NCBI GenBank assembly: GCA_964035545.1
Contig: OZ037766.1
Span: 32,478,773 to 32,542,772, forward strand
DNA length: 64,000 bases
Reading direction: 5' to 3'
Origin: Bugula neritina
Lineage: Eukaryota > Animalia > Bryozoa
Positions within the stretch are counted from its first letter, which is position 1; every line of letters begins with the position of its first letter. Position numbers and translations under genes: made by a program. This document shows positions 25,113-62,137 of this stretch, piece after piece. The notes under the pieces were generated by a model, which saw only the letters and a list, made by a program, of their open reading frames with translations, was not told where the DNA came from and did no database searches.

Positions 25113-26078
25113 GGAATCACTTGGTGATATCAACACTACATTGCTCACACTTGCATTTTTGCGTTGTGCCAATATTAGATTTAATTTCACAATAAAACAA
25201 TTATGATGTTAAAATCAGCTGAGTATATCAAATTTTTGAAACACTGCAGTACCTTATCCTTACTTCAAGAGTTTTCAATTTTGAAAGCTTTAGAATTATT
25301 CTTAGCCTATAATATTTTTTTTATTTTTATGTCATAGAAATGTTTCAAAACCTAATTCAACTCATTTTTTATTTAAATGATATAAGCTTTCAATTATCCT
25401 TCGGGCTTTGATTTTAAACAATGCAGATACCTAATTGTCATACCCATACATAGTGTTTCCCTATATTTTAACTACCAAATATAGTCAAGTTTCTGGAATT
25501 AAAGTCAGTAATTTACAATCCAATCATTTTTATATTATATAAACCTTTCTGCATGGGTAAACATTTAAAGAATTTTATTTTATTCAACGAAAATGTGCAG
25601 ATAGTTATTATGATGAACAAGTGATCAGGTTTAGCTTGCTTACAAATGATGACAGGGAGAAAAACTATCTATATAATTATTTATTAGAATGGTTTGCATA
25701 ATCATATGATTAATAACAATTTATCCTTGGGTGGTAATTGCAATGTACGATTAAAATAGGTTTCAAGGAGCTACGAAAAATTATCATGATATTTTAAAAA
25801 CATAAGCTAAGTTACGATTTATAGAATACTTCTATATATACAGTCTATTAAAAAAATGTGATAATTTCAAAGCATAATGGTTTCAGGTTTTAGCAGCAAA
25901 AATCTAATAAAAATTAGTTTTTTAAATTTAAAAAATACCAAATTATCAACATAAACTAATTAGAAGTAATTTGCCCCTGTCAAACATATAATTGCTTATG
26001 GCTTATAGCCGTAGACTTGGAGGTTTAAGAACACCAACTAACTCCTTTCTCTTGACAGAATTTTGATATATTTCCTGG

Positions 26079-26446
26079 TTATTTTCCCAGAAATTTGGAG
26101 CTTGTACTTAAATTCACAACGTACCTGTAACTGGACAAACACTTGCAGTTGTGTAGTTGGTTAGACTGAGCTCTTTCACACGGCTCTTTACACGAGTCCT
26201 TGTCAATACAGCATGCATGTTTGACAGAGACTTCTACTTCTGCTAAACAAAGAAGTTGGGCAGGGTCGACATCAAGCATGCTGACTTTGACAAATCGTCC
26301 AATCATAGAGCTGGTACATGTGAATACTTCTGGTCTATTCTCCCCAGCAGCAGGAGCACCATCTCTGTAGACACACAGTGAGTCATCATCATCTATAACT
26401 GACTCCAACTTGGCCACCGTTATCTTTATATTCTGCATCTGGTTTA
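26079..26446 (-). pseudogene. Isolated copy of the terminal exon of the lectin-repeat gene (domain half plus Cys-rich tail, frameshifted)
   Basis: Near-identical to 53842-54210, with an AG acceptor at 26447-26448. An insertion after SSYR shifts the frame and removes the final CxC. No upstream lectin exons are present. Confidence 0.8.
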
Positions 26447-26456
26447 CTAGGAAAAC

Positions 26457-26665
26457 AATGCAATGCAATGCAATGCAATGCAACGCGATGCAAGGCGAGG
26501 CGAGGCGAGACGAGGCGAGGCGAGACGAGGCGAGGCGAGACGAGGCGAGGCAAGGCAAGGCAAAGCAAGGCAAGGCAAGTCGAGGCGAGGCAATACAATT
26601 ATACAATACATTACAATACAATACAATACAATAAAATACCATATAATACAATAACATACAACACA
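26457..26665. repeat. Compound pentamer microsatellite (AATGC)n-(GAGGC/GAGAC)n-(AAGGC)n-(AATAC)n
   Basis: Direct; explains the RRGE/RRDE ORFs 26389..26710. Confidence 0.92.
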
Positions 26666-35110: not shown

Positions 35111-38100
35111 TAATTTAATCACTGCCATATTCCTGGGTTTGAATCTCTAGGTTTTGCAAAACAAAATTTTGACGTGGAGTATGCAAAAATTCAAGATTTA
35201 CAAAAGTGGCTTCTTCCACGGATTTCCTAAAGTTTGCTGGTATCATTGCAACTTGCTCTGGGTCATTTATATTTGAATATGTTTGTGGGTTATTGAATAC
35301 ACTTTTTCTAAAAATTAGGCTTATCTACTGGGTATTCAGAATCATTCTCAGGCATTATATTATGACATAATGTCCATACATTTCAAGGTAAAAATGGCAA
35401 ACTCAGTTATAGATATTATACACAAGGTTTAAAGCTTTTTTGCAACTTACTATAGCCTTGACCTGTACAATAGACTTCTGATAGTTTAAACAACAGAATA
35501 GCTGGATTTTCAGTCTCCAAAATGAGAAAGTCTCATGTTTTGGTTTAGAGTTCAACAGAGTTTAACAAAATATCAAATGCTTTGTACTCGATTGCTTGGA
35601 GGAAATTGGGGACAACTCCTTCATAACACAAACCATTTAGCCACATTTGAGATTGAGTGAACAACTCCCTCTTCTTCATATCACTTATAGAATTGAGAGG
35701 GCAACTCTCTCAATTTTCTGAGAAGACTCTAAATAAAACCCATTGTTGAACTTTTCATTTTGCTCTGTTTTCGGAGTTTCTTCAGTGTATATACAGCGTT
35801 GGATATTATAGCGCTAAGGCCTTAAAATTGTAGCTAAAGTTCACTAATTAGAATATTCAGTTTTAGAAACAAGTGATCTGCATTTAAAAATAAAATCCAT
35901 AAAGAAAAAATAGGCCTAATCTCGTAGTTTTTAATAATTAGGCCAGTGCTTTTAAATGCTTAGAAATTGTCTTGTCAAAATCGCAGTGTCATATGTTTTG
36001 TTAATATAATTTCTACTTTCATATTTTTTACTGATAATTTTTTGAATAGTTTTGCAAATACTGATTTTTTGTCATGCTACATTAAATAATAGTAAAATGG
36101 TATTGCCAAGTACCCTCGATTTAATCTGAGTTATTAATTAACTCTACCATAGTTATGACCTCAAATGTTTCCTAGTGATCACATCCAAGGAACCTCTGCA
36201 GTTGAACTCAGCTATTGCGTATTAATTGTCCTCCCTTTCACAACACTGCGCGAGCACAATTAGCAGAGGTATTTTATAACAAGTGGGTGCATGGAGTTTA
36301 TTCTATACAATATAGATGCATGAATGTACGTGGTATTCACACTAGGATATAATATTGTTATTGCAAAGTCAATGAACTGAAACACGACGTCACAGGTTAA
36401 TCCACAACAAAGCTTACTGAAGCGTGCGTTAACCTCTAAACTGCTATAATATATTATATTATCTGTAACTTGATCTAAATGATAATCACTGGTATAAAGT
36501 AAGCTCCATTCAACTCCCATTCATTCCTATTCAATAATTTCGTTTTGATAAAACGTAGTAAAATATTTAAACTGAAACTTATTTTGTCTCCAGAAGAAAG
36601 AAGAATGTTTATTGTGACATTTATGTGTAAGTTACTCCCTCTAAATACTATTGGCTTTTTTGTCACCTGATTTTTGTGTGTAAATATTGTTCTTTTAGAA
36701 GTTAGGTTTAAATCTGCATTATTCTTAAAAGATAAATATGTCATGCTTCAGTTTTTTATAATTAAGTTATTTCTATATTAAATAACAATATATTATAATC
36801 GAATTTTACTGAAAAAAAAAATTACTTACCTAGTCTTTTACTCAAATGTTACCATCATTAAACCACTGCCATCTAAATTTTTTGAAACTAAACGAAAAAG
36901 TTTTAAAAAATATACCTTATCAAGTGCAACTTTTCTTTATCTTTCTCAAAAATGCTATTATATTGCGGTAGACTTGAAAGCACAAAGAATTGATCATTAA
37001 AACAAAATGCAAATACATACAAGCTTGCTGCGAACACGTGAAAACTAATAATAGCTATAGGTGTTTTATTTTGAACGTATGAGTTTGAATAATGAAAATT
37101 TATTTATAATTGGCCCTATTATATACGAGAGAACATATACAGACTTAAAGAGGGAGAAAGACATAAAATAGTTACCAGTTAAAATTTCGTTTATGTAAAT
37201 ATTATATAATGCTAAGAACTATCATCACAGTAAAGCACAGGAGCAACCGGTTGCCATTCAGGGTCAAAAGTTCGTACATCGTTTAACTTATAATTATACA
37301 TAATAAAGTCAGTCATAGTACAACACAGCACCAAAAGTGTGCACTAGACTGAAGGGTACTGCTGTACTGCAGTGTCACATTTTACTTAGAAACATGTAGA
37401 CAGATAAAATTTCATAAATTATAATGTAGATGTCAGTTTATAGTGTATTTACTGTAAGCAGATGGTAAGTGCAATCACAGCTAGCCAGATTTTCTAGCAA
37501 TACATTATTGATAAAAAGATCATAGTATATACGTGAACACAATCAGTGAGCCTAGCTAAACCTAGAACATAATATGTGCACCTAAAACACTAAATTTAGT
37601 AAAAAATTAGCAAAACACAAAATAAAAGTATGTAGAATAACTGTCCATATACTGTGAAAGATATGTTAAGCTGTTAAATAGAAAATAACTGGTCATATTA
37701 GCTGTCACAATGAGTTTATTCGTCAACCAGGCAATTCTTCATTGAAGTTCCAAACTTTACAAAAATATCATAAAAATCGAGAAAAATAAAGTTGGTAAGC
37801 CTAATTAAAGGGGTGTGAAAAAGTATACTGCACAATTATTTCTGAATAAGCCAGCTATAATGCAAATATATGTTATGGTTAGTTTTACTTTTACACTCAC
37901 TGGTGCAGTCATGCAGTGCATGGTAAAAAGTTAGTTTTAACTGAAGATATTTTATGAGCTGCAAAGTAAAATATCTTGGTTCACGAAGCAATTAACATAA
38001 ACTAATAAAACCTTCACAGAGATTATCAGTCTGAAGTCTGTTATTATAACAGATGATGGCTATAGGATTATTATAATTTATAGGTTTTATTGTTCACATA

Positions 38101-38823
38101 GCATGTTAGCTATAGTTTAGTACAGAGAGAGTGGAATCAATGTGTACCAAATCATTAGCTATATTTAACTAAAACTTTTAATTATAGCTTTTCCCTGAAA
38201 GCTTTTTATAGCCTTTTCTCTGAAAGCTTTTTATAGCTCTTTCATTGAGAGTTTGCATGGTAAAAATGGTATTATGATGCAACGGTTTACTATTTAGCTT
38301 TGCTATAAAAGTTAGTATGTAATGTGAGTTTTGCTTGGGGCTCTTTGCTTCACATCATGGACACATTTCCATCCCACCCGTGGCAGGTTTAGGAACACGG
38401 CCTAAACTAAACTTTACATAAATAGAACTAAGTCAGTATACTGTCATTTACATGGCACCAGCATTTTAGCCTATTCTTAAAATATGTTATATATGGTCTA
38501 AATTACTTTTACTTAGCTGTAAAATTGTATGAATGTCAATAACGTTATTTCTGACACTTGAATTACCTTCTACTATTTCATTCAGTTGGGTGAACAACCT
38601 GCATAGTAAAGTTTCTAACCTATCGGTCATGTGTAACCTAATCCGAGCTACAGAATAAATGTTAGTTTTTATATAGGGTTATGACGATGCATTTATTGAG
38701 ACAAGGCGTGTCATATACCTGAACGTAGTAGTAGTGGTAAAGAGAAAAGTTTGTGTATGTAACATTGCAGTTTCAAGTTCAATGCAACACTGCATAATCA
38801 ATCATATGCTTTCTATTTTTCAG

Positions 38824-41800
38824 CATTGCTAGCCGCTGCCTGGGGTATGTATTGCTTGCTGTCTACTTTTCCTCTGCTTCAGTGTCCCTATATCTAGTCA
38901 TATAGAATAATGCATGCCATAATTATGTTTGATATCTTTGCATATATAACCAGTTGCCATAGAAACTAAAAGCTATTATTCAAAAGAGAAGTGCATGTTT
39001 GCATATCAGTGCTAAAACCAATTTTCTCTAATTTTAAGTGTGAATTATGCATATTTTACTAGCAATTTGAAACATTTTCTTCAGCGTATTCCATACACAT
39101 CTTGTTATGTTAACATGCAGCAAGCTTTCTGCTTTATTAAACTTTTTTGTTATCAAAATAAAATCAGAGCTACTGAATAATATAAATTTCTTTAATTTAA
39201 CTTGACGTACGCATGAGGTAGAAATTAGGTCAATTATACATAGGAGTGATGCAATATGTAACTTAACTCTATAAATGAATATGGTGACGTGTTCCTCATG
39301 AATGAATATGGTGACGTGTTCCTCATGAATGAATATGGTGACGTGTTCCTCATGAATGAATTCACACGATGATTTATTTTTCAGGGGCGTCACAGCTTGA
39401 TGTTGCAAGTAAGTAAATAATATGTTGATACTCTAGCTGAGCATTGAAATATAGATGATTAGCAGGCATTCAACACACGCCTGACAATGTGTCACAATAA
39501 ATCATGTTGCAATAGTCAGTAAGAGAATGAGAATAATATTTTTGTGGTGAAATTAAATTACTGGTAGTATATACAAACATCCACTATATCATAATGTTAC
39601 TAACCTATAAAGTCTATCAAAGTAGTATATAAAAAAATTATGTAAAATTTTATATTTATATTTTCAAAAACGTTCTATTGATATGTTTTGAGTTTAGATA
39701 TGATAAATTGATGTTATATTTTATATATTTTGAAACTATTATATAAAAACTATATTGTAAAAACATAATTGGCGTGCAGCTAAAATCATGGTTTAGCCCC
39801 CCCTTTTCTGCCCTTGGAAGAAACTTGTTGGTACGTGAACAAACTCCTTAGCTCTGTGTATATCCTCTCAAGTATAGAACAGAAGTCAAATATACAGGCA
39901 TGTTAAATAAAATACAGGAGAAGATAAATATCTTAGTTTATATAAAAAAGGGTTTCAATGCAGGTATTTCTGGATCAGTGAGTTACAGCAACTATGCTGT
40001 TGGTAACCTGGTTGATGGAGACTATGCGAGCAGTTTCTGCACTAAAGATGTGAGTATATACTAGAGGTCACTGTGTATAGACTAGAGGTCACTGAGTATA
40101 GACTAGAGTTCACTGAGTATACACAGAGAGAAATATTAGTGTTGGAGTGAACATTAGCTGACAACTAAAACCTCTCGTTTTTTGGATCCCTAAATTGACC
40201 AGCAGTGAATAGAAATTAGTGTCAGGTACTGTTCACAGTGAATAGTATGTTAGATCAATGTTGATATAAAGAGTTGTGAAGTTGATTCTTTGTATTTGTC
40301 ACAATGAGCCAAGTTATGTTCAATGGTGATCTTATATATGTTCAATGGTGAGCTTATATATGTTCAATGGTGAGCTTATTTATGCTCAATAGTGATATTA
40401 TATATGTTTAATAGTGATCTTATTTATGTTCAATAGTGATATTATATATGTTCAATGGTGAGCTTATATATGTTCAATAGTGAGCTTATATATATTCAAT
40501 GGTGATCTTATTTATGCTCCATAGTGGTATTATATATGTTGAATGATGATCTTATTTCTGTTCAATGATGATCTTAGATATGCTCAATGCTGAACTAAGT
40601 TATATTCAAAGCTGAACTTATAAATGTTCCATGCTGCTCTAATTTTTGTTGGAAATAAGCTTCTGCAAAAATTATTACTGATCACTCTGAACTAACTTGT
40701 CATAACTTCTAACCGGTATGAGAGTATAGTAATGGGAATTTTATTGTATATGATAGTTGAATATAAGAAATGCAACAAAAAATAACTTCTAAAGATTAAA
40801 ATAAGAAAAAAAACATGAAAATAAACATTTGCAGAATTTTTCTACGACTGTAAATTCAGTTAACTTTTCTCAATATTAGCAGAACCTGTGTGTCATTACA
40901 TTCTTGCTCTGTAGTGTAGCGATAACCAAGCAGTTGTAGTGTGTAATGGTTAGCACTCCGAGTGGTCAGGGAAGCTTGAAGGAGTAGTATAAAAAGGCAG
41001 GTGAGTTCTTGAAAAGTGGGTAAGGTGTAGTGTCGAGAGCATCCAGTGACGCTTGTAATGTAGTGGTGAGTGCGCCTGCTTGCAGGCTGAAGGCCTCAGC
41101 ATGATTCAAAGTTTTGTAACGGTCAAACTTTTTTGTGTGCTCCTATTCAGCCTCTTTGAGTGCATGTTCTTAAAAAATGTTATGGGATCTACAACAAAAG
41201 ATAAAAGTTGGGTAACATTTAAACTGTATTAGTATGAACAGTAAACATTTGGTTAAGATATACAATCATAAGCAGCGTAAATAAATTAAGTTCAACTTTG
41301 AAGAAGCTGAAGTCTAAGGCCAAAACTAATAGTATCAATGATGTTAGCTATGAATCTTTCAGCATATTTTCAGCACCATGGTACCAATCGTTTGACTCTG
41401 AATAACCATACAGGCTTTGGCAAACTTATAATCATTATGTTGCGTAGTGTTTGGGTTAGTTTGAGCTTATCAAAATTTAGTAACAATTTTGGCCATCATT
41501 TTATTTTACTTCTTTCTTAATTACAAATGCAAGAGCTGTTGGGCATAATTAGTTTAGTTAATAGCTTTCTCTGCATTAAAATGATCTTAAAATGTCAGTG
41601 AACCACAACTTAAGCTAGAGTCAGCATTTTATATGGACCCCTCATATTGATATCGAGATAACAGATATTGATAAGTTTCAGTATGTCTATAAATTGAAAA
41701 ACAAATAAAGTACTACCAAGAGAAATGTTGCTACTTAAACATGTTTTTATATTTAATTGTGCTGTGCAAAGATAAATAAAAGAATAAACTGGTAGCACGG

Positions 41801-44800
41801 AAGTTAATAAATTTTTTTGCCATTTTACCACTAATATTGGCATTTTGGTACTTAGCTATAAAACAAGAAGCTAGCTTGGCAGCTGCTTAAGGCTAATAAC
41901 TACTTGTAGGCTGCTAAACTGCATTATTACCAATACTTCTACAATGGGGGGGGGGGGAATTCAAATTAATGAATTTAGCACAAATTGCTAGAAGGTGAAG
42001 TGGAAATAAAACGCTAAATTTTTTGAAAATAGATTGTTACAGGAAAACTCGTATTAAATTAACATAGGAATAGAGTAGTTTGGGAAATATCAGTCAATGT
42101 GGTCTCTTAAAAATTATAGTTGCACAAATTCAATTATCTGTCTACAGCAATAGTCATACTGTCATTGTGATATCAAATGACAGCGTTAAGCAAATGATTG
42201 AGCTTACCTTTTGCTGCAATGACAACTTCAGTTCCTAACTCTGAAAGAAAGTGATCATCTTCTATCTCTGAGAGGTAGCTGCAATCTTTACCCATGTGAT
42301 GAAATGATTCAATGTTTTCCATGTTGTGAGGTTGTTTGGAAGCACAAATTCACTGAATCTCAAAGCACAACCTCTTAGTCTGAGCCTCTGGTGTTCACTA
42401 TGCCGGCAGAATATTTCTTCTGTCAATAGCCGTGACTGAAAACTATGTGCTGTTATGTAATAACCTTTGTTTTGCGCTTTCGATGCTTGGTAAGCCAGTT
42501 TCTTGCCTTTGAATTACAATTTAAATATTTCCTTACTATAGCTCTGTTATGCAACATCTTCTTTTGTTCCGCCAGGTAGTTTACACAAGTTACTTAGGCT
42601 TTTGAAGTGGCTCACCTGATCCACAATTGACTATTCAGTAGCTTGTTTCATTGTTAATTTTAGGCTTCTTGTTTGAAACACATTTGCTGATAACTGAGTA
42701 CATTGGAGTTTAATGGTGCATCTCCCTGATTTCTCTTTTACACACATTTTAAATTAGTTGGCTTTCCTTTCCATGAATGAAATTGACTAGTGAAGCCTAA
42801 ACTACCCATGCAAGAGATATGTGCAGTTGAAATTTTTTGTTGATAAATTCAACTTAAGTCTTTGATAAACGGAGTGGGGCAATGTTTAATAGTAGTCTGG
42901 TAACAAGCTATTTGAAAATGTTTTGGGTTCAAAAAAATTTTGAAATCATAAAAAGCTAGTAGGTTGAAGGAGTTTCATTCCACTTATATGCTCCCTAGTT
43001 AGGCTGTATTTTTTGTTTTGGTACTAAGTTTTATATACCTATATACCCTTATATAACTTTCATATGAATCGCTAAACATAAAATAACCATTAATATGATA
43101 TATTTGCAACAATATTTAAATTTTCCCAAATTTGTGTTGAAAAAAAGCATTAAATGCATTAATAATAACATTTTTTCAAAAAACAAAAAAATATAGAAAA
43201 TGCAAAATTAATAGGGTATGCAGAGCAAAGAAATTTTATTTGTGCGCCAATTATAAAAAGCAATTGACTCAAATTTATTTAAATACACATATATTTCAAT
43301 GGTATTCAAATAAATTGCACGTAAAATGTATAAATAGCATCTAACTGGGAAGCACCAATTGAAATGACCCAAATGTAAGGTTCAACTCTATCCTAGCTTC
43401 CTATAAAGGTTTGTGATCATCATTAGTGCACATGTGAACGAATAATGTTGTTAGGTGAACAACTGCCGATTGTTCCATAATTCTTTTGTAAATTAAATTT
43501 TGCTTGAACATATGTAGTTGTAGCATTGATCTCACTTTCTGCTCCTATCAACTACTGTTTAGCTTTATTCAGACCTAGGGATGATGATTACGTAATACTT
43601 GTGAAAAGTAGCGTTGGCTTAACAACTAAGTGGTTTCAGAGCTACTACAAAATATTTTTCAGCTTACACTAATCGGATTAATTTTCAATTTCATTAAAAT
43701 AAGTGCAGGTCTAACAACTATTAGAGGTGTGGTGCAGGCTATACCGACAATAAAAGGCTCTTTGAACAACTTTAGTGCAAGCGCTGCACTAATATTTCTC
43801 TCTGTGTAGACTAGAGTTCACTGTGACATAGAAAATATAAGATAATGCAACTTCATTAACTAGTTAAATAACACCTTTTTACATGTGCTTTAAAACTTTC
43901 AATTTTTTCACTGATTATAAATTCTGTAATGTTTCTTGTTTCACGTTTGGTTGCAATATGTCTGCTGTTTGTTATCTTGCTCAGGATGATGGTCGCTATG
44001 CACTAATGGACTTAGGAGATCTGTATGATGTAACAGAGATATGGCTATGGGGAAGAGATGAGAATTCAAGCTTCTACTGTAGGTTTAACTCATTGCTCAA
44101 GTTTTTAGTCATGAAATATCAATTTTCTTATAGTAAAACACACTCATAGCTTTGAAAGTAAAATATCATCAAAACAAAAGTTTCAATAATGCATGCTATT
44201 GTGTAAAAAGTAAAAACTTGTAGATTAATTCAATAAATATTATATGACTTTTTTATATGCTATTATTTTACTCTATAGCTAGATTTTAAATTTTTAATGA
44301 TGCGAAGTCAGCCAGCTCAGCTAAACTAAAAAAGCTAAAGAATGTTTAAGTGAATACAAATAATTTAATTTATCAATAAATACTTGTACAAAATTTCTGG
44401 TGTCCTGAAAGATAAAGATTATTGAGACATCAATTAAATATATAGCACCAAAGTGTAAGACTAGTAACTAGGACTTAATAACTAACATGCCAGAGGCTTA
44501 AAGACTGCATGCCTGTTAAAGTAATTTAGGCTGTAAAATTATGCCAAACATTCTCAATTCCTTATATTTTTCTAGTAAATCAGATGCAAAATATGAAGAT
44601 AACGGTGGCCACGACAGAGTCAGCTATAGATGATGATGACTCACTGTGTGTCTACAGAGATGGTGCTCCTGCTGCCGGGGAGAATAGACCAGAAGTATTC
44701 ACATGTACCAACTCTATGATTGGACGATATGTCAAAGTCAGCATGGTTGATGTCAGCACTATAAACCAGTTTCTCTGCATGAATGCAGTTGAGGTTTACG

Positions 44801-47800
44801 GAGCAGAATATTCAGGTAAATAAATTAATTATAAACTGTTGGTTATATATTACAAGTCTGTTATATATGTAGTTGTCTACCCTTTGCAGGTTACATGCTC
44901 TACAGGCTATACAGTCGCAGTTGCAAGCTATTAGCAAAGATAATGAAGTAATCGCTTTTAAATCTGTTTTCATGTCTTATATTTAATTATAAAATTTATA
45001 ATTAGAAATATTTCCATAAAAAAGCTAAATTAGTAAACTATTGTTTCAATTACCTCATACACTATCAGGAGTAAGTGCAAGGTTCTATAAAGGTGTTTGG
45101 ACCAGAAGTGTAAGTACTTTAACAAATATTTTTATACAACTTTATTGTTATAACTTGAAGAAAGGCAAAGCAAAAACTCTGTTTACATAATTGGCAATCT
45201 GCCCATATATCACATTTGTGTCACGTACTTGTATGCTGAGCCTTTCATATAGTTAAGGATTATCTTCTCCAATCTTATTACTTTTGAATACTAAATTGAT
45301 TTAATTTTAATTAAATTCAGCAACTAATAAAATACCATATTGCATACGGTAATTTTTATTTTTATTTGTAGGGCCAGCCCAGCTGAACACTACAGGTATT
45401 ATTTACAATGTCATGTATTTGGTGCATTTTACTTCTATTTAGCTGTATAATATAGACAAGCATATTCAGTTTAATAGAGCGAATTTTTCCTTTGCAGGTC
45501 TTTCTTTATATTAGCTAATTTTATAAAAAAAAGGTCAATTGAGCCATTTTTAGCAAAATTTATTTGCTGTTGTAGCTAATAATGATAAAATTAATATTTG
45601 CATGCATACTTAGCAATGATAATATGAAAAATATGATGTATCATAAAAATGAGATTATATATCAGGTATTTTGAAGTTATTTAATAATTGCTAGCCTCGT
45701 GTTTGCAGAGGTAACTGAAAGCTCCACAAAGTATTCCAACTATGCGGCAGAAAATCTACTAGATGGTGACTACAGCAGTGACTTCTGTACACAAGATGTA
45801 AGTATGATTTATGGAACTAGCATTTTTACAGTTGTCAAATCTCTATATAACATTGCACTATAACATTGCTATAACATTACTATAACATTGCTATAACAGC
45901 GCTATAACATTGCTATAACATTGCTATAACAGCGCTATAACATTGCTATAACATTGCTATAACATTGCTATAACATCGCTATAACATCGCTATAACATCG
46001 CTATAACATTGCTATATAACAGCACTATAACAGCGCTATAACATTGCTATAACATTGCTATAACATTGCTATAACAGCGCTATAACAGCGCTATAACAGC
46101 GCTATAACATTGCTATAACATTGCTATAACATCGCTATAACATTTTATAAGTGACATAATATAGAGGTTCATCACTTTCCAGGACTCTGGCCGATATGCA
46201 GTGATAGATCTCGGAGATGTTTATGAAGTGACAGAGCTATGGGTTTGGGGCAGAGATGAGACATCCAGCTTTTATTGTACGTATATACTATACATTCCTG
46301 AATTATCTCTATGTAATTAAAACTGAATTTATTTAGGTCAGATGTGTAAGTATGCACATTCATTCAATATGTGTATGGCTATATAACTTGTACACAAACT
46401 CACTGCTATGCATGCAAGTATAATGACTATAAATTATTTGGGAGACAAAAAACATTATATTATTAGCAGTATACATAAAACTCTTACGTATCAAAAGAAG
46501 CTATACATTACTTAGCTCCTTTATTTATAAATTAAGCTCGATATATTATGTTAAGAACTTTGTTAAATAACTAATAACTTACTTTTTACTCATAAAGTAC
46601 TTCGTGATAAAGAAAATTTTTGGTTCAATACAATAAGTTATTTTTACTGCCGATAAAATTATTTTGAAACTAAATGGTGATGCCCCACTGCACTGGCATG
46701 GTACATCTTATTAGGTTGTGAAAGTATATTAGTCAATTATTTCAATGAAAAAAATTTATTCTTGTCTATTCTTATAATATATGGTAAAATTTATGTTGTT
46801 AGTTTTATTATTTATAAAACATTGTTTATTTCATTAACTGAAAGAAAACATGCTTTGTAAAATTATTTTGCAAAATTCTCTTAATTTAAACGTAGCTTTT
46901 AATAAATAAAAATATTTATTATTATCCTCGAACTAATATTATAAACTAATTGCTTAAGAAGCTCCTAATGCAATATTAACTTATAATAAATATGCACACT
47001 TTATATAGTACTTTTCATTAATTGATGAATGACTTTTTACCTGTTGCTGTCTAGTAAACCAGATGCAGAATATGAAGATAACGGTGGCCAAGTTGGAGTC
47101 AGCTATAGATGATGATGACTCACTGTGTGTCTACAGAGATGGTGTTCCTGCTGCCGGGGAGAATAGACCAGAAGTATTCACATGTACCAGCTCTATGATT
47201 GGACGATATGTCAAAGTCAGCATGGTTTATGTCCAATCAGGACAGTTTTTCTGTTTGACAGAAGTAGAAGTGTTTGGGTACAACTATGAGGGTGAGTTAT
47301 GTCTAGTCTAAATGTAAGGCATATGTTGACAGATTAGCTGTTAAATAACCTCTATTGCAAATTACCTTTTTGCTAAAAGGAAGCTGAGAAATACTTATAG
47401 ATAAAACCTTAGCGTAATGCTATTTAAGATGTTATAATATAGCTCTGTAAAATGTTTCACCCATGGATAGTGTAATATATTATCATAATTGTTATGTTTA
47501 TTTTCAGGTCCTGATATGATTGTAATTGCTGGTAAGTAAATAATTTCCCTATTAAGTCATTGCATAACGATATTCTAAATATAATAACTGTTCATTATTA
47601 TATAACATTCTATAGAATGTTATATAATAATAAACAGTTATTATTTACTGAAGAAATAGCTAAAACATGCTATCATAACTGTTATATATATATAACAGTT
47701 ATGATAGCATGTTTTAGCTATTTCTTCAGTAAATAAAAATGCATAATTTGCTATATTTCAGCAATATAGCTATGCAGTTTAACCGCATTTTATTTTATGG

Positions 47801-50800
47801 CTTGCATTGAATATAGTACAATCATTAAGTTATAAAAAGAGGATTTTCTTAATGAGTTATATTTCAACAGTTGATATTCTTCTGCTATACAAATACAGTA
47901 GCTTGAAAAGTTTTTTGTAAATCAAATTAAAAGGCTATTTAAATATTAAATTATGATGCAACTAAAATATAGTTATAATATATAATTATGCTACAACTAT
48001 GATATAACTATAATATGATTATGTAACATAGCTATAATATAACTATAATATAATTATAATATAACTATAATACCATATAATATTGTAGACATACCAGACA
48101 GCTCAACTAGCTACATTAACTACGCTGTAACTAATTTATATGACAGAGATTATTCTACTGATTTCTGCACTAAAGATGACGTGAGTAAATTTCAATATTC
48201 TGTTTCTGGAAGTTACTTCTGTCCCAGAAATTTCACAAAATGTGGCATATTACAGCAAATTTTATATTAAATGTTTTTCTTTTGAAAAAATGCAGTCAAA
48301 TATTATTCAAGTATTTTTCAATAAATTAGTTCAGCAAACAAAAAAATCTGTTTGACTATGAGTGCCTAGCAAGGCCAAGTTAGAATTTACATGAAAAATG
48401 ATTTCAGTATTAAAATCCATTTAGAACTTGAAAAAATCAAACTCTTGGCAATTAAAAACACAATTTAATAATATACTGAGTAATATAGACATGCACTATA
48501 TCTCTTTTATTTGACTTTTTATCTAGAACTGTTAAAATCAAACTATATCCTTCATACAACTATATAGAACTATAACTGGAAATATAACTAGTATCTATGC
48601 TACTGGAGCTATAACATATTGTATTGGTAGGAATCTGGAAGATATGCACTGATAGACTTGGGGGACTTCTATAAAGTTGAAGAGCTTTGGCTGTGGGGTA
48701 GAGAAGGCACGTCCAGTTTCTACTGTAAGTCCTGCTAAAACTCAGTCTAAAATACTAAAATAGTTTTATCTATTTAAAAAAAATTTTTTTAACCACATGG
48801 CACCATGGTTCTAAATTTTGAAAATATATTTTAGTTAGAGTTGTTTCATTCACATATTAGTTGAAGTAATAACAAATTGATATAATGAAACTTGCACTAA
48901 AACTCTTCTATTAAATTAAAAAACATCCTGTCATTTTAAACTGCTTATTATAGATCTATTTTTATCTATTCTGAATATAATTATTTTCCATTAATAAAGC
49001 TACAAGACTTTATACTACATTTATTCAACAGTAAATCAGATGCAGAATATGAAGATAACGGTGGCCATGACAGAGTCAGCTATAGATGATGATGACTCAC
49101 TGTGTGTCTACAGAGATGGTGCTCCTGCTGCCGGGGAGAATAGACCAGAAGTATTCACATGTACCAGCTCTATGATTGGACGATATGTCAAAGTCAGCAT
49201 GGTTGATGTCCAATCAGGACAGTTTTTCTGTTTGGTAGAAGTAGAAGTGTTTGGGTACAACTATGAGGGTGAGTTGTGTTTCAGAATAGTCTGAGTTCTT
49301 TGACTAAACATAACATAAGTTCCTGACTTCTGTGTTTTAACTGCGAGTTTAATAGCTTGCTGCTAAACTATAGACATGCTTAAAGCACAATCATTTGCCT
49401 TATATTCAGCACTTTCACTTTTGCTCTGTCATTATAGACAAATAACTTCAATGAGTTCTTTATTAACAAGTTGTGTGGCAGTCTCAGTTTGAAGTTAGGC
49501 TAGTTGTATTTGTCATTGTAAAGATCTATTGTGAAATGCAACCGTGCAGCTGAAATCTTGAATGTTTATATTTATTATATTTCAGGTCCTGCCGAGATTG
49601 CTATATCTGGTGAGTAAGATAACAATTTATTACGTGCTGTGTTGCGCATTATAAATATTTTAAATATAGAGTATAATAGTCTAATGATAAAACTGCTAAA
49701 TGTTTTGCATTTGAAAAAAAAAATTACAAATGAATCTAAAATTCAAGACTTGCAACTTAAAAATCTGATAATTAAGTTGATATAACTGCTGTTGGAAAAA
49801 GAGCTATTCTCATCGATAATAGTTCAATTTGTTGAAGATCATTATAATAGCTGTTGTTATGCATGCAATGTATATTCCGTAGCAAATGACAATTATTTTT
49901 ATAATATGTTGCTATAATAATTTTCACCCTAAATATATCATAATTAAGGTATCAAACTATAGTAGTTCCAGTAATACATATTACCAAAATTACTTAACAG
50001 AAAAAACGTAGTATATATTCTTATTCAGCAGTTAATGTAATATAATTATAATTATAATTATATACCTATACTATATATCTTATATATATAACTACAATAT
50101 ATGTACATATACTATAATTATAATTTAACTATACTATATAAATATATAATACAAATATTATATAACTATAATATAATAATAATATAACTATAATATAACT
50201 ATAAGATAACCATATTATAACTAAATACTATGCATGTTGTAGACATACCAGATAGCTCAACTAGCTACAGTAGCTACGCTGTAACTAATTTATATGACAG
50301 AGATTATTCCACTGACTTCTGCACTAAAGATGACGTGAGTAAATTTCAATATTCTGTTTCTGGAAGTCATTTCTGTTTCAAAGATTTTACAAAATATGGT
50401 GTGTTATAGATTATATTATAAATTTTTTTGGAAATGAAAAATAAAATGACTTCGTTTAAGCATATCTTTTTAATTGTTTTACTAGAAAAGCTCTTTACAT
50501 ATATAGCGATTTCTGTAATGCTGATGCTATAACCACAAAAAATCTTTCTAAGAATTAGAAGTTTTGAATTTTTATTGCTCAGTAAAATTCTAAGAAGTAC
50601 ATCTGTAATAGTAAAATATTTTTGGTTTATATATTAATTACCTAATTTATCTTTGCTGATAATAATAATAACCCCATTATTCTTGTGTAGCCATAAGCAT
50701 CTGGTAGGTAAAATATACAAGTGCTGTTAATGCCACCATTGTTCTCATCTAAAACCGTTAAAATCAAACTCTTTCCTTCATTCTACTGGAACTATAGCAT

Positions 50801-53800
50801 ACTGTATTCATACTACAACTAAAACTATAATATATGTATTGTTATAGTTATATAAATTTATAACATAATATTGTATTGTTAGGAATCTGGAAGATATGCA
50901 CTGATAGACTTGGGGGACTTCTATAAAGTTGAAGAACTTTGGCTGTGGGGTAGAGAAAGCACCTCCAGTTTCTACTGTAAGTCCTGCTAACACTCATGGT
51001 TTATGTATTTTTAAAAATATGAAAGATTTGAATTAAATTTGCAAAAAAAACCTAAACACTCTGTATCGCATGAAAAACTGATTTTACTTTCAGTATGTTA
51101 AACATTTTAAAACTAAACTAGTGATTTTATATCTAAAAGTTTAAATTACTTCAATTATGGGAATATAATTATTTTCTTAGTAAATCAGACGCAGAATATG
51201 AAGATAACAGTGGCCACGACAGAGTCAGCTATAGATGATGATGACTCACTGTGTGTCTACAGAGATGGTGCTCCTGCTGCCGGGGAGAATAGACCAGAAG
51301 TATTCACATGTACCAGCTCTATGATTGGACGATATGTCAAAGTCAGCATGGTTGATGTCCAATCAGGAGAGTTCTTTTGTTTGACAGAAGTAGAAGTGTT
51401 TGGATATGGAGCTGAAGGTAGCAGTTTAGTATAAGCAGAGTATAATATACTGCTTTGCTACTTACTCCTCACTGAACATTACATCAGCATAGCTGCTTGA
51501 ATAAGTTGACTGCACTCTTCCACATTTAGTTTTCAGAAGATGTATTAGCAAATTACACAAGTATTAGTTTTGTGGTTTACTTACTAAACATATATTGTGA
51601 AGAGTTTTTATTCAAATAAAAAAGTTTCATAATTTGCAATAACTATGTCCATATATGTTATCATTTGTCAATCACTATTATATTATGTTGAGCTCTTCTA
51701 ACTCTGCTATTGTATGTTTCAGAGATAAGTAGAGCTGCAGTGACGGGTAAGTGCTGCCAGTAACATGTGAAATGAATAGCCCTGTTTTTCTGCTGCCAGT
51801 AACATGTAAAATGAAAAGCCCTGTTTTCTTATATATTTCATAGTTTAACAGCTTTTCGTAAATTATAAGTAATAACTATGATATATTCTTTAATTGGTGA
51901 GCAATAAAATGGTATTCTAGCAGGATTTGTAAACTCAAATAAAACAAATAATTGGACTAACTGCAGGTAAAGAGTTTAACATTAACCAGCATGTATAGCT
52001 AAACTGTGAATTCAATCTGTGCGTGCAATGTATTGCGAGATATGCAGATATACCTCAGTTTGTGGAGGTATTTGGCTTTTTAAGCTACTAACAAACTTGC
52101 TCTGTTTGCTAACTACTTTTGTGCTGTAATTTAAAACTTTTGACTTTGCTCTAATATGTATAACACAGCTGAAACAAGCTTCAAACTAGATAGCTTGAGA
52201 GCAAAAATACTTTTTCTGTATAAATGACAGCAAAGTAAAATACGCAGTATTTAGCTGTCTATATATATATTATACTTTGGTGCGTTTCTAACATTGCATA
52301 TAATTAGCCTTTTACACTTCATATAAAACTGATGGTATGTGTAATATAATATACTGTGTCATTTTGTCTATGTAAAAGTGCCAATATTTATAACACACTG
52401 TAGATATATCTGGCTCAGAAGAACTCAGTAACTTTACAATTTCCAACTTGATTGATGGAGATTACACCAGCACCTTCTGCACTGCAGCTGTGAGTGTTTA
52501 CCAGGCTGCCAGTGTTTATTGATTCATAAAAAAGTGTCTAAGTTTTATCTTCAAAAAATTCATGTAAACAAGCTCATTGGCTACAAGTTTACTATAGCAA
52601 ACAACTATCTGGCTCTAGGAATTGCCAATCTGGTTATTTTGCTAATAAAATTTTAGTTTTGAGTTAGAAGTCACTCTGACTGAGTTGAACCTCAAATTTT
52701 ATTTTATATGAATAGCAACACATACACAAGTTGTTTTTATAGCAATTTTAGGCTTATATATTGTTGTTATAGTAAAATAAATAATTATATATAAATATTC
52801 AGAGTATAATTGATATATAATTGCATACATTGACATTCAATGAAACTAATTGGTGTAACAATTTTAATTCTGAACTGCCTCTTCTATTGATTCAAAAATT
52901 AAACTGCTTTTAAATATTCATTGCGTAAAGTTAGTTTACTCAAAGCACTATTCTGATTTTGCAAGAAAGTTACAACTTTAGTCCAGACTACTTTTTGAAG
53001 CTTTCTTTTCCTGTACATATATTGAAATTCATGAAGCATAAACTATATGTATATATGATGATATAAATATATAGCTTTAATTGTGGCTGATTACAGGAGT
53101 CAGGTAAATATGCGGTGATGGATCTGAAGAATGTGTATGAAATTGCAGAGCTGAGAATATGGGGAAGAAACTACAAATCCAGCATCCATTGTAAGTAAAA
53201 TTTTATAAATAGATAAGTTTCTTTCTAAAAGGTAACATTAATGTGTAATATAAGTTAAAGTCTTAACAAATAGCAAATTATGTGAAAGAAAATAATATTA
53301 AAAAAATATTAAAAAGTATTGCTTTAAACTAGTTATTAAAATTAATAAAAAAGAAATTATCAAACAAAAACCGAGTATATGTTATAATTTTTCTTGCATA
53401 AATCTTCTAAAAGAATTCTATTTTAACTTCTTATAAACCCTCTATATAAACCTTTTATAGACCTTCTATATTTATAAACCTTCTATAATAAACTTCTTTA
53501 AGCCTTTTATAAATTTTTTATATATCTTGTATCAGTTTACATAAAATGTTTTACACAGCTTTTTCAATCTATTATAAGCAAACTAAAAGGTCGTATTTGC
53601 TAACAGATGACATACTGTTTAGCAGTTTTTTGCTGCTTGCTTTTATTTCCCTTACTGCATTTTGCTGCAAGTTTCTTACAGTTTTATAACGCTTCAGGAT
53701 GTTAGAAAAAATTTTGAATCTCATTCTTACAAAGTTCAATAGATGAATTTATTTAAAAGTAATTTATTTTAATTTTATAGGTAAACAATACTTATATAGC

Positions 53801-54245
53801 GCTAATGTAAATACGATATTTAAACTTACTTTATTCAACAGTAAATCAGATGCAGAATATGAAGATAACGGTGGCCACGACAGAGTCAGCTATAGATGAT
53901 GATGACTCACTGTGTGTCTACAGAGATGGTGCTCCTGCTGCCGGGGAGAATAGACCAGAAGTATTCACATGTACCAGCTCTATGATTGGACGATATGTCA
54001 AAGTCAGCATGGTTGATGTCGACCCTGCCCAACTTCTTTGCTTAGCAGAAGTAGAAGCCTATGTCATGCATGTGGGCTGTATTGACAAGGACTCGTGTAA
54101 AGAGCCGTGTGAAAGAGCTCAGTCTAACAAACTTCACAACTACAAGTGTTTGTCCAGTTACAGGTGTGAATGCAAGTACAAGTTCCAAGTTTTTGGGAAA
54201 ATAACCAGGAAATATACCAAAACTTTGTCAAGAGAAAAGAGTTAA
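38824..54245 (+). CDS. Probably secreted protein with five tandem F-type-lectin/F5-8 type C-like domains and a C-terminal six-Cys (CSab-like) module; ~800 aa; start exon not located
   Basis: Phase-consistent exons: 38824-38844 (xLLAAAWG, possible signal-peptide end). D1 39385-39408, 39964-40049, 43985-44078, 44576-44815. D2 45372-45395, 45709-45797, 46183-46276, 47055-47291. D3 47508-47531, 48089-48180, 48631-48724, 49032-49268. D4 49586-49609, 50243-50334, 50883-50976, 51181-51417. D5 51723-51746, 52404-52489, 53097-53190, 53842-54245. Domain motifs NLxDGD, FCT, IDLG..Y.V..LWLWGR, FTC...MIGRYVKV, C..EVEV. Confidence 0.85.
39275..39360. repeat. 27-bp tandem repeat x3 (ATGAATATGGTGACGTGTTCCTCATGA)
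   Basis: Direct; just upstream of the first microexon acceptor. Confidence 0.9.
40315..40620. repeat. Degenerate ~22-24-bp intronic minisatellite (TGTTCAATGGTGAGCTTATATA-like)
   Basis: Direct tandem units. Confidence 0.85.
45845..46150. repeat. 11-bp minisatellite (CTATAACATTG/CTATAACAGCG)
   Basis: Fills most of the D2 intron between exons 45709-45797 and 46183-46276. Confidence 0.93.
47581..47736. repeat. Two abutting AT-rich palindromes (64 bp with one mismatch; 96 bp perfect)
   Basis: 47581-47644 is centred on CTATAG; 47641-47736 (TTATTTACTGAAG...CTTCAGTAAATAA) has no spacer. Confidence 0.93.
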
Positions 54246-55699
54246 TTGGTGTACTTGAATCGTCAGGTCTAAGATTATAAACTATAAACAATGATGTGTT
54301 TGACAAGGACAAATTACTTTTAATTAGTTTACGTTGATGTCGTGATATATTCTTAAAATTTAAAAAGCTACTTTTTAACAAATTTTTCCCACTAAATCTG
54401 ACACTAATATGCGTTGAAACTCTCACATTTTTTGTTTTAATAAATTGTAAAGCATTCTATAAATTATAATTTAGCTTGTGCTTTTAAAAAATCATTTTTT
54501 TTGTAGCTCCATGAAACATATTCTAATAAATTGTATTACACACAAACATAAATTGCCATCAATTATAATTATACAAACCTTAATATACTAAGAATAAATA
54601 AAATTTCTTCCTGCGTCACCATCTGCAAGTTAGTTAAACCCAAGCACCTTTTTATTATTAGCTGCACATTGTAGATAAAATAAAAGTTCAATTTACAGTT
54701 TTACGTAGAAAGGCTTATATAGCAATAATTAAAATATTCAAATTTATCATCTCAACTATTAGATAGTGAGGATGACTTTATATCTAGTCAATTATGGTTT
54801 TTACATATATGGGCTCTACACAATGTGTGACATTGATATGAACTTCAACCGAATTCTCCATTAAATGTATGCTGTTTTAAGTTTATTGTTTAGTTTCTTA
54901 AAACAGCACCATTCCTGAGCTGCAGTAGCAGTGTGTAATGCAATAATATGTGATAAGAAGGAGATTGACTTGTAGTGAACTGCATTGTATGTTTACTACT
55001 AGCTAACAGTTCATATAAGCAGATATAGAAATATGTGTATAAATATAAAAATATAACACAAAAATAGTGATACTGATTATAGTAGGAGACGAGATCTACT
55101 AGTTATTGTTGATCAGTTGATCAGCAGTGCAATCTTTTAGCTATTAGTTAAAGTAGTTTTCTGTTTGTTTGAGTTGGAGTTGTGTTCTACTGCTACATGG
55201 CTTCAGCTGATCCATCTATAGTGCTGGTTTTTCCAGTCATTGTTTAAGCTAACTATAAAAGTAATTATTTAAAGTAGTTATCTACACTGTAAGATAAGAA
55301 ACTATAAGGGATTTTAATTTGCTTCCAATTTTATAATTTTCTAAACCAATGCAGAAATTAGGAGAAAACCTCTCCTCAAAGTTTAGATGTATAGAATATG
55401 ATGAAAAGATGAAAACATGTTTGATGCCTGTTTGAACAATTTTATTATCATTATTAACTGTATAAAATGTATTATGTAACATTATGCTGACAAAAGTCAG
55501 CCAGTATAATTAGTCATAATCAACATTGCCTACTTTTAAATACAAAAATATGTGTTGATGAAAACAGACTATATATTATTAGTGAATATAAAGTATAAAG
55601 CTAGTCATGGTTTATCATGTAACAAGAAAATATAATTTTAGTTTAAAGTGTCACTCACAGAACGTAGCAGAAAGTGAAAGCTACAACGTAGCAGCAGAC

Positions 55700-58600: not shown

Positions 58601-59221
58601 GGCACTATTTTTATTATGATGCAATTCTCAATATGGTTTTCTTGTATCTATATATTATTTTACTGAATTAAAAGCTACAGCTAAGTTGTTAAATTAAATT
58701 ATTTTGTAAACTATCATATGTGAAAAGCTTCATAATAAGAGATATGTCCACCGCAGAAAATTCAATAAGAACTGTGTGCATATACAGCAATAACAACTGT
58801 GCCCTAAGAGAAATGAGAAGAGTTGGTAATATTTGAATGTAACCCTAAACAAAGCTTCTTTACCTTGAGGATATCTGTCCAATCGCCAATTGCATTGTAT
58901 TTCTCCAGGTAGCCATTGGCTAATTTCTCTAGGTAAAGTTTAGACACTTCCAGGTTGTATTTCCCACCATGTGCACCACAGTAAGCTTCTTTAAATGCTC
59001 TCAGCTCTTCTGGGAGCATCTACACACGTATTGTTATTTTACTATTATATTATACACGTACTATGTTATATTGTTGCATGCATATGCAATAATATTGCAT
59101 GTATTGTATGTGGTAGTATAACACGCTATATATATACTGTATATAGATACTATAATGTGGTACTCTAATACATACGGCCTTTCAAATCTACCAACTTACT
59201 CACCACAAACTCATCATCCAT
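55700..59221 (-). CDS. NTase (GlnD/DUF294-like)-TPR protein, copy 3, ~1019 aa
   Basis: Exons 59221-59204 (MDDEFV), 59019-58864, 58585-55700. The listed ORF start at 58624 is intronic (acceptor TTTCAG at 58586-58591). Same motifs as copies 1 and 2. Confidence 0.9.
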
Positions 59222-61260: not shown

Positions 61261-62003
61261 GATGTACTGTATTTGATTAGCAGAAAGACATAATGCAGGA
61301 TGTACAGATACATTGTGTGACATGCGTCAAGAAAAAACTGATGGACACTATAAATAGTTCTAAACTTAGCACTTTAACTGCATTTAACTATGAATTTATT
61401 TCCCACAGTAAGAGCTGATAACTCCTTATTTAGTTCATCCAGTGATAATTGCTGAGAGCATTATATTTTAGAGTTAGTGGTATATGTTCTAATAATATGT
61501 GTAATGACTATAATTCATTTAGTAGTCGGTCAGTCAATCAGAAGCATTGCGTTCAACTTATAGTATGTAGAGTTTATGCTTTTATATAGCAGGGGTAGAC
61601 ACTTATGGCCTTTGCCCACTTTTCAGTGGCCATTTTCATGCTTATAAGATGAGTAAAAAAACTGTTATATATGCATATGCATTCTGATTAGCACAGCTAG
61701 CATAGGTTTGCTCAGCAACGCTCTAAGAAGTACATTTGTAATAGCAAAATAATTTTGGTTTCTATATTAATTATGGTAACTTATCTTTGCTGATAATAAT
61801 AATCCCATGATAATTCTTGTGTAGTAAAAGCATCTGGTAGGCCATATATACACATTTTGCTAATGCTACCAATTTTCTCAACTAAAACTGTTAAAATCCA
61901 AATATTTCTTTCATACAACTCCATGGAGCTACATATTGTATTCATGCAAGTATGACATAATATTATATTGTATTGTATTGTATTGTATTGTAGTGCTTCC
62001 TAG

Positions 62004-62137
62004 GAAATTAGATGCGGAATATAGAGATAACGGTGGCCACGTTGGAGTCAGCTTTAGATGATAATGACTGCAAGTTCCAAATTTTTTGGAAAATAACCAG
62101 GAAATATACCAAAATTCTGTCAAGAAAAAAGAGTTAG
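62004..62137 (+). pseudogene. Internally deleted remnant of the lectin gene's terminal exon
   Basis: The exon start (GATAACGGTGGCCACGTTGGAGTCAGC) is joined at ~62068 directly to CAAGTTCCAAATTTTTTGGAAAATAACCAGG from the exon's 3' end; the downstream sequence matches 54245 onward. Confidence 0.75.

What the first reader, a model, noticed from the sequence alone, without database searches (positions are those of the whole stretch)
54078..54245. Lectin array ends in a CSab defensin / scorpion alpha-KTx-like module plus a basic tail
Seen: CIDKDSCKEPCERAQSNKLHNYKCLSSYRCECKY = C-x5-C-x3-C-x12-C-x5-C-x-C, followed by KFQVFGKITRKYTKTLSREKS*. Established: C..CxxxC..C..CxC defines the cysteine-stabilised alpha/beta fold of invertebrate defensins and short scorpion toxins. 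Charybdotoxin is C-x5-C-x3-C-x10-C-x4-C-x-C, with the pore-blocking Lys just before Cys4 and a Tyr after Cys6; a Lys before Cys4 and a nearby C-terminal Tyr are both present here. Inference: a glycan-targeted antimicrobial or ion-channel effector (multivalent lectin plus warhead), an architecture I do not recognise. Caveat: a weak donor (AG|GTGTGA) after SSY could change the true C-terminus.
Basis: partly seen in the sequence, partly recalled or inferred. Interest (0 to 1): 0.8.

Follow-up and report, generated by a model that had tools for sequence, protein, structure and literature searches.

The report
Lectin-fold array with defensin-like end cap

Summary
The motif is real: C-x5-C-x3-C-x12-C-x5-C-x-C, in frame at the end of the last exon of a five-domain F-type-lectin-fold gene. 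It is the only tight match in six frames; 1 of 200 shuffled windows gave one. The one full-length relative found, a Bugula neritina hypothetical protein, keeps 6 of 6 cysteines but has another tail (net +1 against +7). Contigs of likely-RNA runs read from the lectin domain into the module (2 of 3 runs) and cover the weak donor (3 of 3); one contig of depth 5.6 against 793 leaves there. AlphaFold gives helix plus hairpin (pLDDT 74); 5 of 5 Foldseek and 22 of 30 VIA rows are CSab peptides, all weak (E 0.88 or worse, Z 4.2 or less). No Pfam family matches. The alpha-KTx signature K-C-X-N is half met (KCLS), the module is nearly neutral, and the fucose-binding motif is missing in 5 of 5 lectin domains. 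Verdict: a real, lineage-restricted, likely CSab-fold module tethered to a lectin-fold array; new domain combination of known parts; activity untested; toxin reading unlikely. Interest 0.45.

The parts
54078..54173 (+). Six-cysteine module C80-C111 (C-x5-C-x3-C-x12-C-x5-C-x-C), predicted CSab fold: helix carrying CxxxC, hairpin ending in CxC
   Evidence: 6 of 6 Cys and 27 of 32 residues kept in P0002
54174..54245 (+). C-terminal tail to the stop; basic here (+7), replaced by an aromatic, near-neutral stretch (+1) in P0002 and in loose ends of two RNA-type runs
53842..54245 (+). Last coding exon B5: second half of lectin-fold domain 5 running without an intron into the module
   Evidence: RNA-type contigs start at 53842 and cross from 53990 to 54156
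54164..54169 (+). Weak splice donor; rarely used. The spliced form would end ...SSYS-stop, without the CxC (inferred)
   Evidence: (one contig, depth 5.56 against 792.9)
39964..44815 (+). Domain 1: exons 39964-40049, 43985-44078, 44576-44815
45709..47291 (+). Domain 2: exons 45709-45797, 46183-46276, 47055-47291
48089..49268 (+). Domain 3: exons 48089-48180, 48631-48724, 49032-49268
50243..51417 (+). Domain 4: exons 50243-50334, 50883-50976, 51181-51417
52404..53190 (+). Domain 5, first two exons 52404-52489 and 53097-53190
39385..51746 (+). Five 24-nt phase 1-1 linker exons: 39385-39408, 45372-45395, 47508-47531, 49586-49609, 51723-51746 (inferred from splice signals)
36605..38844 (+). Candidate signal-peptide exons 36605-36626 (MFIVTFM) and 38824-38844 (LLAAAW); inferred, no RNA check
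26041..26468 (-). Orphan copy of the last exon: no A1/A2 exon found near it, 5 extra bases after the SSYR codons put CEC and tail out of frame, two other residues are Cys, stronger donor (9.8)
62002..62134 (+). Second orphan copy with a 271-base deletion that removes most of the lectin half and the module

Best explanation
The gene has five tandem F-type-lectin-fold repeats and ends, in the same exon as the fifth, in a six-cysteine module predicted to adopt the CSab (defensin) fold; it likely encodes a secreted protein of about 810 residues in which the repeats would grip a surface by avidity and the tethered module would act as a defensin-like host-defence binding knob. Shown: the motif, its frame, its read-through in RNA-type contigs of close alleles or paralogues, its retention in a Bugula neritina protein. 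Predicted: the fold and the C1-C4, C2-C5, C3-C6 bonding (the tool gives no bonds; bonding follows from the fold, established knowledge). Inferred: secretion, a single mRNA joining all exons, and the function. Because the module is nearly neutral and has no conserved dibasic cleavage site before it, it would more likely bind a specific lipid, wall polymer or protein on microbes or foulers than lyse membranes as a free cationic peptide. The ligand of the repeats is unlikely to be fucose in the canonical way.
For: Motif beyond chance. AF2 on the 40-residue module: helix 8-18 holds C11 and C15, strands 23-28 and 34-38 hold C28, C34, C36; mean pLDDT 73.8, five models 66.5-73.8; the same helix and strands appear in the 134-residue model. 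Foldseek: 5 of 5 matches are CSab peptides. VIA wide: 22 of 30 rows are CSab peptides (15 by title or paper, 7 by my recall), top Sm2a Z 4.2, rmsd 1.8, 38 aligned, and termicin Z 4.0, rmsd 2.0, 35 aligned. P0002 keeps 6 of 6 Cys. RNA-type contigs in 2 of 3 runs span lectin end and module in one piece (53990-54135, 53990-54156), and listed differences change no Cys. Exon phases fit five whole domains; 14 of 15 exons beat 20 shuffles on a profile of 23 F5/8-type repeats, in the right order. P0011, 37% identical to the lectin half, hits the F-type lectin FBP32 at E 1.4e-06.
Against: All fold matches are weak (Foldseek E 0.88-9.1; Z under 5), pTM 0.39, alignment depth 2, and no control fold of a shuffled sequence with fixed cysteines was run, so the model may only echo the Cys spacing. 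No Pfam or NCBIfam family for the 40-mer. Keeping 6 Cys through 5 changes in 32 residues has chance probability 0.33; the module diverges no less than the lectin half (27 of 32 against 65 of 72). Net charge +1 and 0. Fucose motif absent in 5 of 5 domains, cation motif in 3 of 5. The contigs that cross the junction differ from the window by 10-16 letters in 117-167, so this exact copy is not shown expressed; run X9 has no cover at 54054-54119; splice joins seen at 53842 resemble repeats 1-2, so joining of domain 5 to the rest is not shown. The best fold match, Sm2a, has no antimicrobial or channel activity (PMC7232367, passages).
Confidence: 0.4

Rival explanations
1. The module is a weakly constrained Cys-rich cap or a worn EGF-like remnant with no activity of its own; the protein is an ordinary multi-domain F-type-fold surface protein.
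For: Best PDB sequence hit is a fibrillin calcium-binding EGF pair, E 0.37, with DxC..C and SYRCEC alike. The Atlas's best named hit for the whole exon is a MEGF10-like cluster, score 0.85, a lead only. Divergence data show no clear constraint. Broken copies exist.
Against: Both AF2 models put CxxxC in a helix, which EGF domains lack (recalled). The Gly residues and last Cys of the EGF pattern (recalled) are missing. The fibrillin hit was not found with P0002 or the two-sequence profile.
Confidence: 0.25
2. The module has the CSab fold but serves non-immune recognition (adhesion, settlement, gamete or colony self-recognition), as a small protein-binding knob on a multivalent surface protein.
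For: Neutral charge; tethered without a cleavage site; fold matches include plant receptor ligands (5gyy, 5yah) and the inactive Sm2a; F-type lectins also act in fertilisation (PMC12221842, search listing).
Against: No expression data by tissue or stage; most listed fold matches are defence peptides.
Confidence: 0.2
3. The module blocks or modulates potassium channels like a short scorpion toxin and deters predators or foulers.
For: Lys before Cys4 and K-Y after Cys6 kept in both copies; aOSK1 and kaliotoxin among the fold matches with 32% identity; a plant defensin with only the KC half blocks Kv1.2 and Kv1.6 (PMC5004176, passages).
Confidence: 0.1
4. The normal transcript splices at 54164 and the CEC and tail are intron read-through.
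For: Donor score 7.2, and 9.8 in the 26-kb copy; one X1 contig leaves at 54163 and rejoins downstream, with an AG acceptor at the matching distance in the 26-kb locus.
Against: That contig has depth 5.56 against 792.9; contigs in X1 and X9 run on to 54180 and then read like the P0002 tail (9 of 10 residues); the spliced form would stop one codon later, so no further domain is gained; P0002 keeps an open frame to the same end.
Confidence: 0.05

Closest known systems
CSab (cis-) defensins: termicin (1mm0), Sm2a (6bl9), mussel MGD-1 (1fjn), plant defensins (1gps, 2gl1)
   Same: CxxxC in a predicted helix, CxC in the last strand, six cysteines; best structural matches.
   Different: No sequence-profile match; nearly neutral; sits at the end of a large multi-domain protein rather than behind a signal peptide or pro-piece (usual layout, recalled); no intron before it; activity untested.
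Scorpion alpha-KTx (aOSK1 2ck4, kaliotoxin 2ktx)
   Same: Predicted fold, Lys before Cys4, 32% identity over 34 aligned residues.
   Different: K-C-X-N signature half met; longer loops; low charge; tethered; no evidence of a venom context.
Tandem F-type lectins (FBP32, Xenopus multi-domain FTLs and pentraxin fusion; PMC5712786)
   Same: Tandem repeats of about 140 residues matching F5/8-type profiles; DG cation motif in 3 of 5; extra C-terminal domain.
   Different: HX24RXDX4(R/K) fucose motif absent in 5 of 5; partner is a CSab-type module, not among CTLD, HTLD, PXN, CCP listed in that review's Figure 1 legend.
Streptococcal lectinolysin (FTLD fused to a cytolysin; PMC12221842, passages)
   Same: Precedent for an F-type domain aiming an effector domain.
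   Different: Bacterial, a large pore-forming partner, intact fucose site; unrelated to this module.
Bugula neritina hypothetical protein EB796_022385 (P0002)
   Same: 81% identical over the last exon, same module.
   Different: Annotated as 130 residues only (last exon alone), unnamed, different tail.

Membership tests
CSab defensin superfamily | Cys pattern C...CxxxC...C...CxC | tested here: met
CSab defensin superfamily | Helix with CxxxC packed on a beta-hairpin with CxC | tested here: met
   Predicted only; fold matches weak, Z 4.2 at best
CSab defensin superfamily | Disulfides 1-4, 2-5, 3-6 | not testable with these tools
   The fold tool reports no bonds or coordinates
CSab defensin superfamily | Sequence homology to a defensin family profile | tested here: inconclusive
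   No Pfam, NCBIfam or PDB sequence hit; short divergent peptides are often missed
Antimicrobial invertebrate defensins | Small cationic mature peptide cut from a short precursor (recalled) | tested here: not met
   Net +1 and 0 over C80-C111; fused to lectin-fold domain 5 with no dibasic site
Antimicrobial invertebrate defensins | Antimicrobial activity | not testable with these tools
   Needs assay
Scorpion alpha-KTx | Signature K-C4-X-N (PMC5004176, PMC9657394) | tested here: not met
   KCLS in the window and in P0002: Lys present, Asn absent
Scorpion alpha-KTx | Lys-aromatic dyad about 6.6 A apart | not testable with these tools
   No coordinates; Y26, Y32 and Y38 of the 40-mer are candidates
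F-type lectin | F-type domain homology over about 140 residues | tested here: met
   (indirect, through relatives with F5_F8_type_C hits)
F-type lectin | Fucose motif HX24RXDX4(R/K) (PMC5712786) | tested here: not met
   0 of 5 domains
F-type lectin | Cation motif h2DGx | tested here: inconclusive
   Present in domains 1, 2, 5 (loose pattern); D-R in 3 and 4
EGF-like domain | Six Cys ending CxC-x2-G-(F/Y)-x-G-x2-C, all beta (recalled) | tested here: inconclusive
   Gly residues and last Cys missing by eye; helix predicted; one weak fibrillin hit E 0.37

The most novel reading that the evidence does not exclude
A bryozoan has built a targeted defence effector by fusing a CSab peptide to a five-domain F-type-fold array with a non-fucose specificity: the first CSab defensin-like module from Bryozoa and the first carried on a multivalent lectin-fold scaffold, active against microbes or against ion channels of predators and foulers at the colony surface.
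Probability: 0.2. Interest if true: 0.75.

Novelty: new variant of a known kind. Interest (0 to 1): 0.45.

Why it matters
CSab peptides are known as small free peptides; one tethered to a lectin-fold array would be a natural targeting-plus-effector design and would add Bryozoa, whose own immune effectors are hardly described (searches gave no paper on this), to the range of the fold. It is cheap to test: a 32-residue natural peptide and one cDNA. If inactive, it is still a case of a defensin-like fold used as a structural or recognition cap.

Tried and rejected
No whole genome is held, so copy number outside the window is unknown. Homologue searches: longer proteins, 115 candidates, none scored; module region among 73-235-residue proteins, only P0002; 24-79-residue proteins, none; HMMER over 1.84 billion representatives gave 14 hits, 1 of them covering the module in frame; Atlas on the module, no usable hit; metagenome contigs, none by protein or DNA pattern. 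Cluster look-up could not be made. Fold searches with the 134-residue half-domain model were uninformative (pLDDT 53.6). No EGF chain was listed in the module's fold searches, which does not exclude it. RNA could be laid only on 53790-55750, so the upstream exons and the signal peptide have no RNA check. I considered that the P0002 tail is an inversion or another frame of the window tail; none of the six frames gives it. The 26-kb copy as a functional variant with another Cys framework was set aside: no A1/A2 exon was found near it, and its insertion was seen in none of the 3 RNA-type runs (other strains, so weak). Earlier findings: three look-ups, nothing returned. The Bishnoi 2015 census of F-type domain partners and the Dash 2019 paper on ancient CSab defensins were not read; no supplements were opened; either may bear on the novelty claim.

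Full report
Observation. Window 54078-54245 (+) reads CIDKDSCKEPCERAQSNKLHNYKCLSSYRCECKYKFQVFGKITRKYTKTLSREKS-stop, in frame with ORF 53811-54245. A tight CSab-type pattern matches once in the six frames of the window, here; 1 of 200 shuffled windows held a match and 0 of 20,000 in-frame shuffles of 54066-54245 did. The pattern was chosen after seeing the motif, so the figures flatter it, but the motif is not a plausible accident.

Gene anatomy. tblastn within the window found five sets of three exons (A1, A2, B) on the + strand from 39964 to 54245. All have AG and GT ends, and their lengths fit phases 1-0, 0-1, 1-1 in 5 of 5 domains, the last B exon running to the stop. Five 24-base linker exons and two candidate signal-peptide exons complete a model of 2,433 bases, 810 residues (summed, not checked by RNA). 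On a profile built from 23 repeats of four database proteins with F5_F8_type_C hits, A1 exons fall at positions 15-39, A2 at 52-75 and B at 78-145 of 145; 14 of 15 exons beat all 20 of their shuffles, A1 of domain 3 did not; module and tail do not match. P0011, 37% identical to the lectin half, hits the F-type lectin FBP32 at E 1.4e-06. So the repeats are F-type-fold domains. By the motifs given in PMC5712786 (passages and first part of section 16), the fucose motif HX24RXDX4(R/K) is absent in 5 of 5 and the DG cation motif present in 3 of 5. 'Lectin' is therefore a statement about fold, not about a shown sugar site. B1-B4 end at a phase-1 donor a few codons after the domain; B5 has none there and continues into the module.

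Relatives. HMMER over 1.84 billion representatives gave 14 hits; one, P0002, covers the module (81% over 131 residues). A source names it Bugula neritina hypothetical protein EB796_022385, so the window is probably that bryozoan or a close relative (inference). P0002 keeps 6 of 6 cysteines, the Lys before Cys4 and K-Y after Cys6; identity is 65 of 72 in the lectin half and 27 of 32 in the module; its tail is different, net +1 against +7. Five changes among 32 residues miss all six cysteines by chance with probability 0.33, so two sequences do not prove constraint. No other relative of the module was found. Two broken copies lie in the window: 26041-26468 (-), with 5 extra bases after SSYR and two other Cys, and 62002-62134 (+), with a 271-base deletion.

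Expression and the splice caveat. Eighteen runs hold part of the stretch; I laid 4 of 18 on 53790-55750. X1, X2 and X9 are guessed to be RNA; they behave so, with loose ends at 53842 that read like A2 exon ends and little or no cover beyond 54580, where X17 is continuous. Single contigs cross from the lectin end into the module in X1 (53990-54135) and X2 (53990-54156); X9 has no cover at 54054-54119. Depth at 54164 is 792.9, 285 and 235.1, none with the 5-base insertion. In X1 and X9 a contig runs to 54180 and goes on with letters that translate like the P0002 tail (9 of 10 residues, by hand). Cover of 54186-54251 is 60, 0 and 73 against 583, 386 and 121 just before. Of the listed differences in codons 13-96, nine are silent (one in a Cys codon) and six change a residue, none a Cys; 78 further rows were not shown. 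These contigs differ from the window by 10-16 letters in 117-167, so they come from other alleles or paralogues; this exact copy is not shown to be expressed, and since the B exons are nearly identical, joining of domain 5 to the others is not shown either. One X1 contig of depth 5.56 leaves there and rejoins downstream; an AG lies at the matching distance in the 26-kb locus. That form would stop one codon later. The caveat is thus real but minor.

Fold. AlphaFold2 on the 40-residue module (two sequences) gives a helix at 8-18 with CxxxC and strands at 23-28 and 34-38 with C4 and CxC; mean pLDDT 73.8, pTM 0.39; the 134-residue model shows the same elements. Foldseek returned 5 matches, all CSab peptides (aOSK1, gamma-thionin, SPE10, kaliotoxin, MGD-1), E 0.88-9.1; realigned, Z 2.8-3.9, a plant thionin first. 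The wide VIA search listed 30 chains with Z of 2 or more; 22 are CSab peptides (15 by title or paper, 7 by my recall), led by Sm2a (Z 4.2, rmsd 1.8, 38 aligned) and termicin (Z 4.0, rmsd 2.0, 35 aligned). The agreement is consistent but each score is low, and no fixed-cysteine shuffle was folded as a control. Sequence profiles give nothing: no family in Pfam or NCBIfam for the 40-mer, two unrelated weak Pfam hits for the 55-mer. The best PDB sequence hit is fibrillin EGF at E 0.37, not reproduced with P0002 or the profile; the Atlas's best named hit for the whole exon is a MEGF10-like cluster at 0.85, a lead only.

Toxin reading. PMC5004176 and PMC9657394 (passages) define the alpha-KTx signature as six cysteines plus K-C4-X-N. 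The module has KCLS in both copies: half. PMC5004176 also reports that a plant defensin with only the KC half blocks Kv1.2 and Kv1.6, so weak channel activity is not excluded. The module's net charge is +1 here and 0 in P0002, and the basic tail is not shared. The top fold match, Sm2a, is described as without antimicrobial or channel activity (PMC7232367, passages): the fold does not give the function.

Mechanism. Most likely (0.4) a secreted protein whose five repeats bind a surface by avidity and whose tethered CSab-type module binds a specific microbial or fouler target; secretion, joining and function are inferred, the fold predicted. Rivals: inert cap or EGF remnant (0.25), non-immune recognition knob (0.2), channel modulator (0.1), intron read-through (0.05). 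Taken together, the chance that the CSab fold is right is about 0.7.

Novelty. Both parts are of known kinds. 'Defensin' does not occur in the main text of two F-type lectin reviews, and searches (listings only) showed no F-type/CSab fusion and no bryozoan CSab peptide; the library lacks most subscription papers, and the 2015 census of F-type partners was not read. F-type domains aiming an effector have a bacterial precedent, lectinolysin (PMC12221842, passages). It works like a defensin-fold module on a lectin-fold scaffold; it is not filed as an alpha-KTx, a classical cationic defensin or a fucose-binding lectin, since each failed a defining feature. New variant of a known kind; interest 0.45.

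Noticed in passing
window 19527-22388 (+), 29935-32823 (+), 55703-58627 (-), pieces at 23199-23582 (+) and 63563-64000 (-): Three long single-frame ORFs (954-975 aa) with a DUF294 nucleotidyltransferase-like part and TPR repeats, plus two 3' pieces. Each copy of the lectin last exon lies tail to tail with one of them.
   Followed up: partly
window 27374-32812 and 55714-61142: Inverted segmental duplicate of 5.5 kb at 89.7% identity; further duplicates 25536-26448 / 53840-54721 and 54179-56140 / 62071-64000.
   Followed up: partly
window exons B1-B5 (44576 to 54057): The first 180-220 bases of the B exons are 91-99% identical between repeats while A1 exons and introns differ much more, which suggests gene conversion within the array.
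   Followed up: no
window 54163 to about 55117, and 24256 (-): A low-depth RNA-type contig leaves at the weak donor and rejoins 241 bases before 55385-like sequence; an AG lies at that distance in the 26-kb locus. Its letters fit the 63-kb copy best (7 of 10), so the source locus is uncertain.
   Followed up: partly
window 13863-14192 and 15998-16276 (+): Exons of a probable sulfatase gene; weak Pfam Sulfatase hit for the first, E 0.002.
   Followed up: no
window 27403-28226, 34367-35186, 60288-61113: A repeat of about 830 bases in three copies at 88-91% identity, possibly a non-autonomous mobile element.
   Followed up: no
P0003, P0005: Database proteins that are frameshifted versions of the same last exon, so several broken or mis-assembled copies exist in this lineage.
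   Followed up: no
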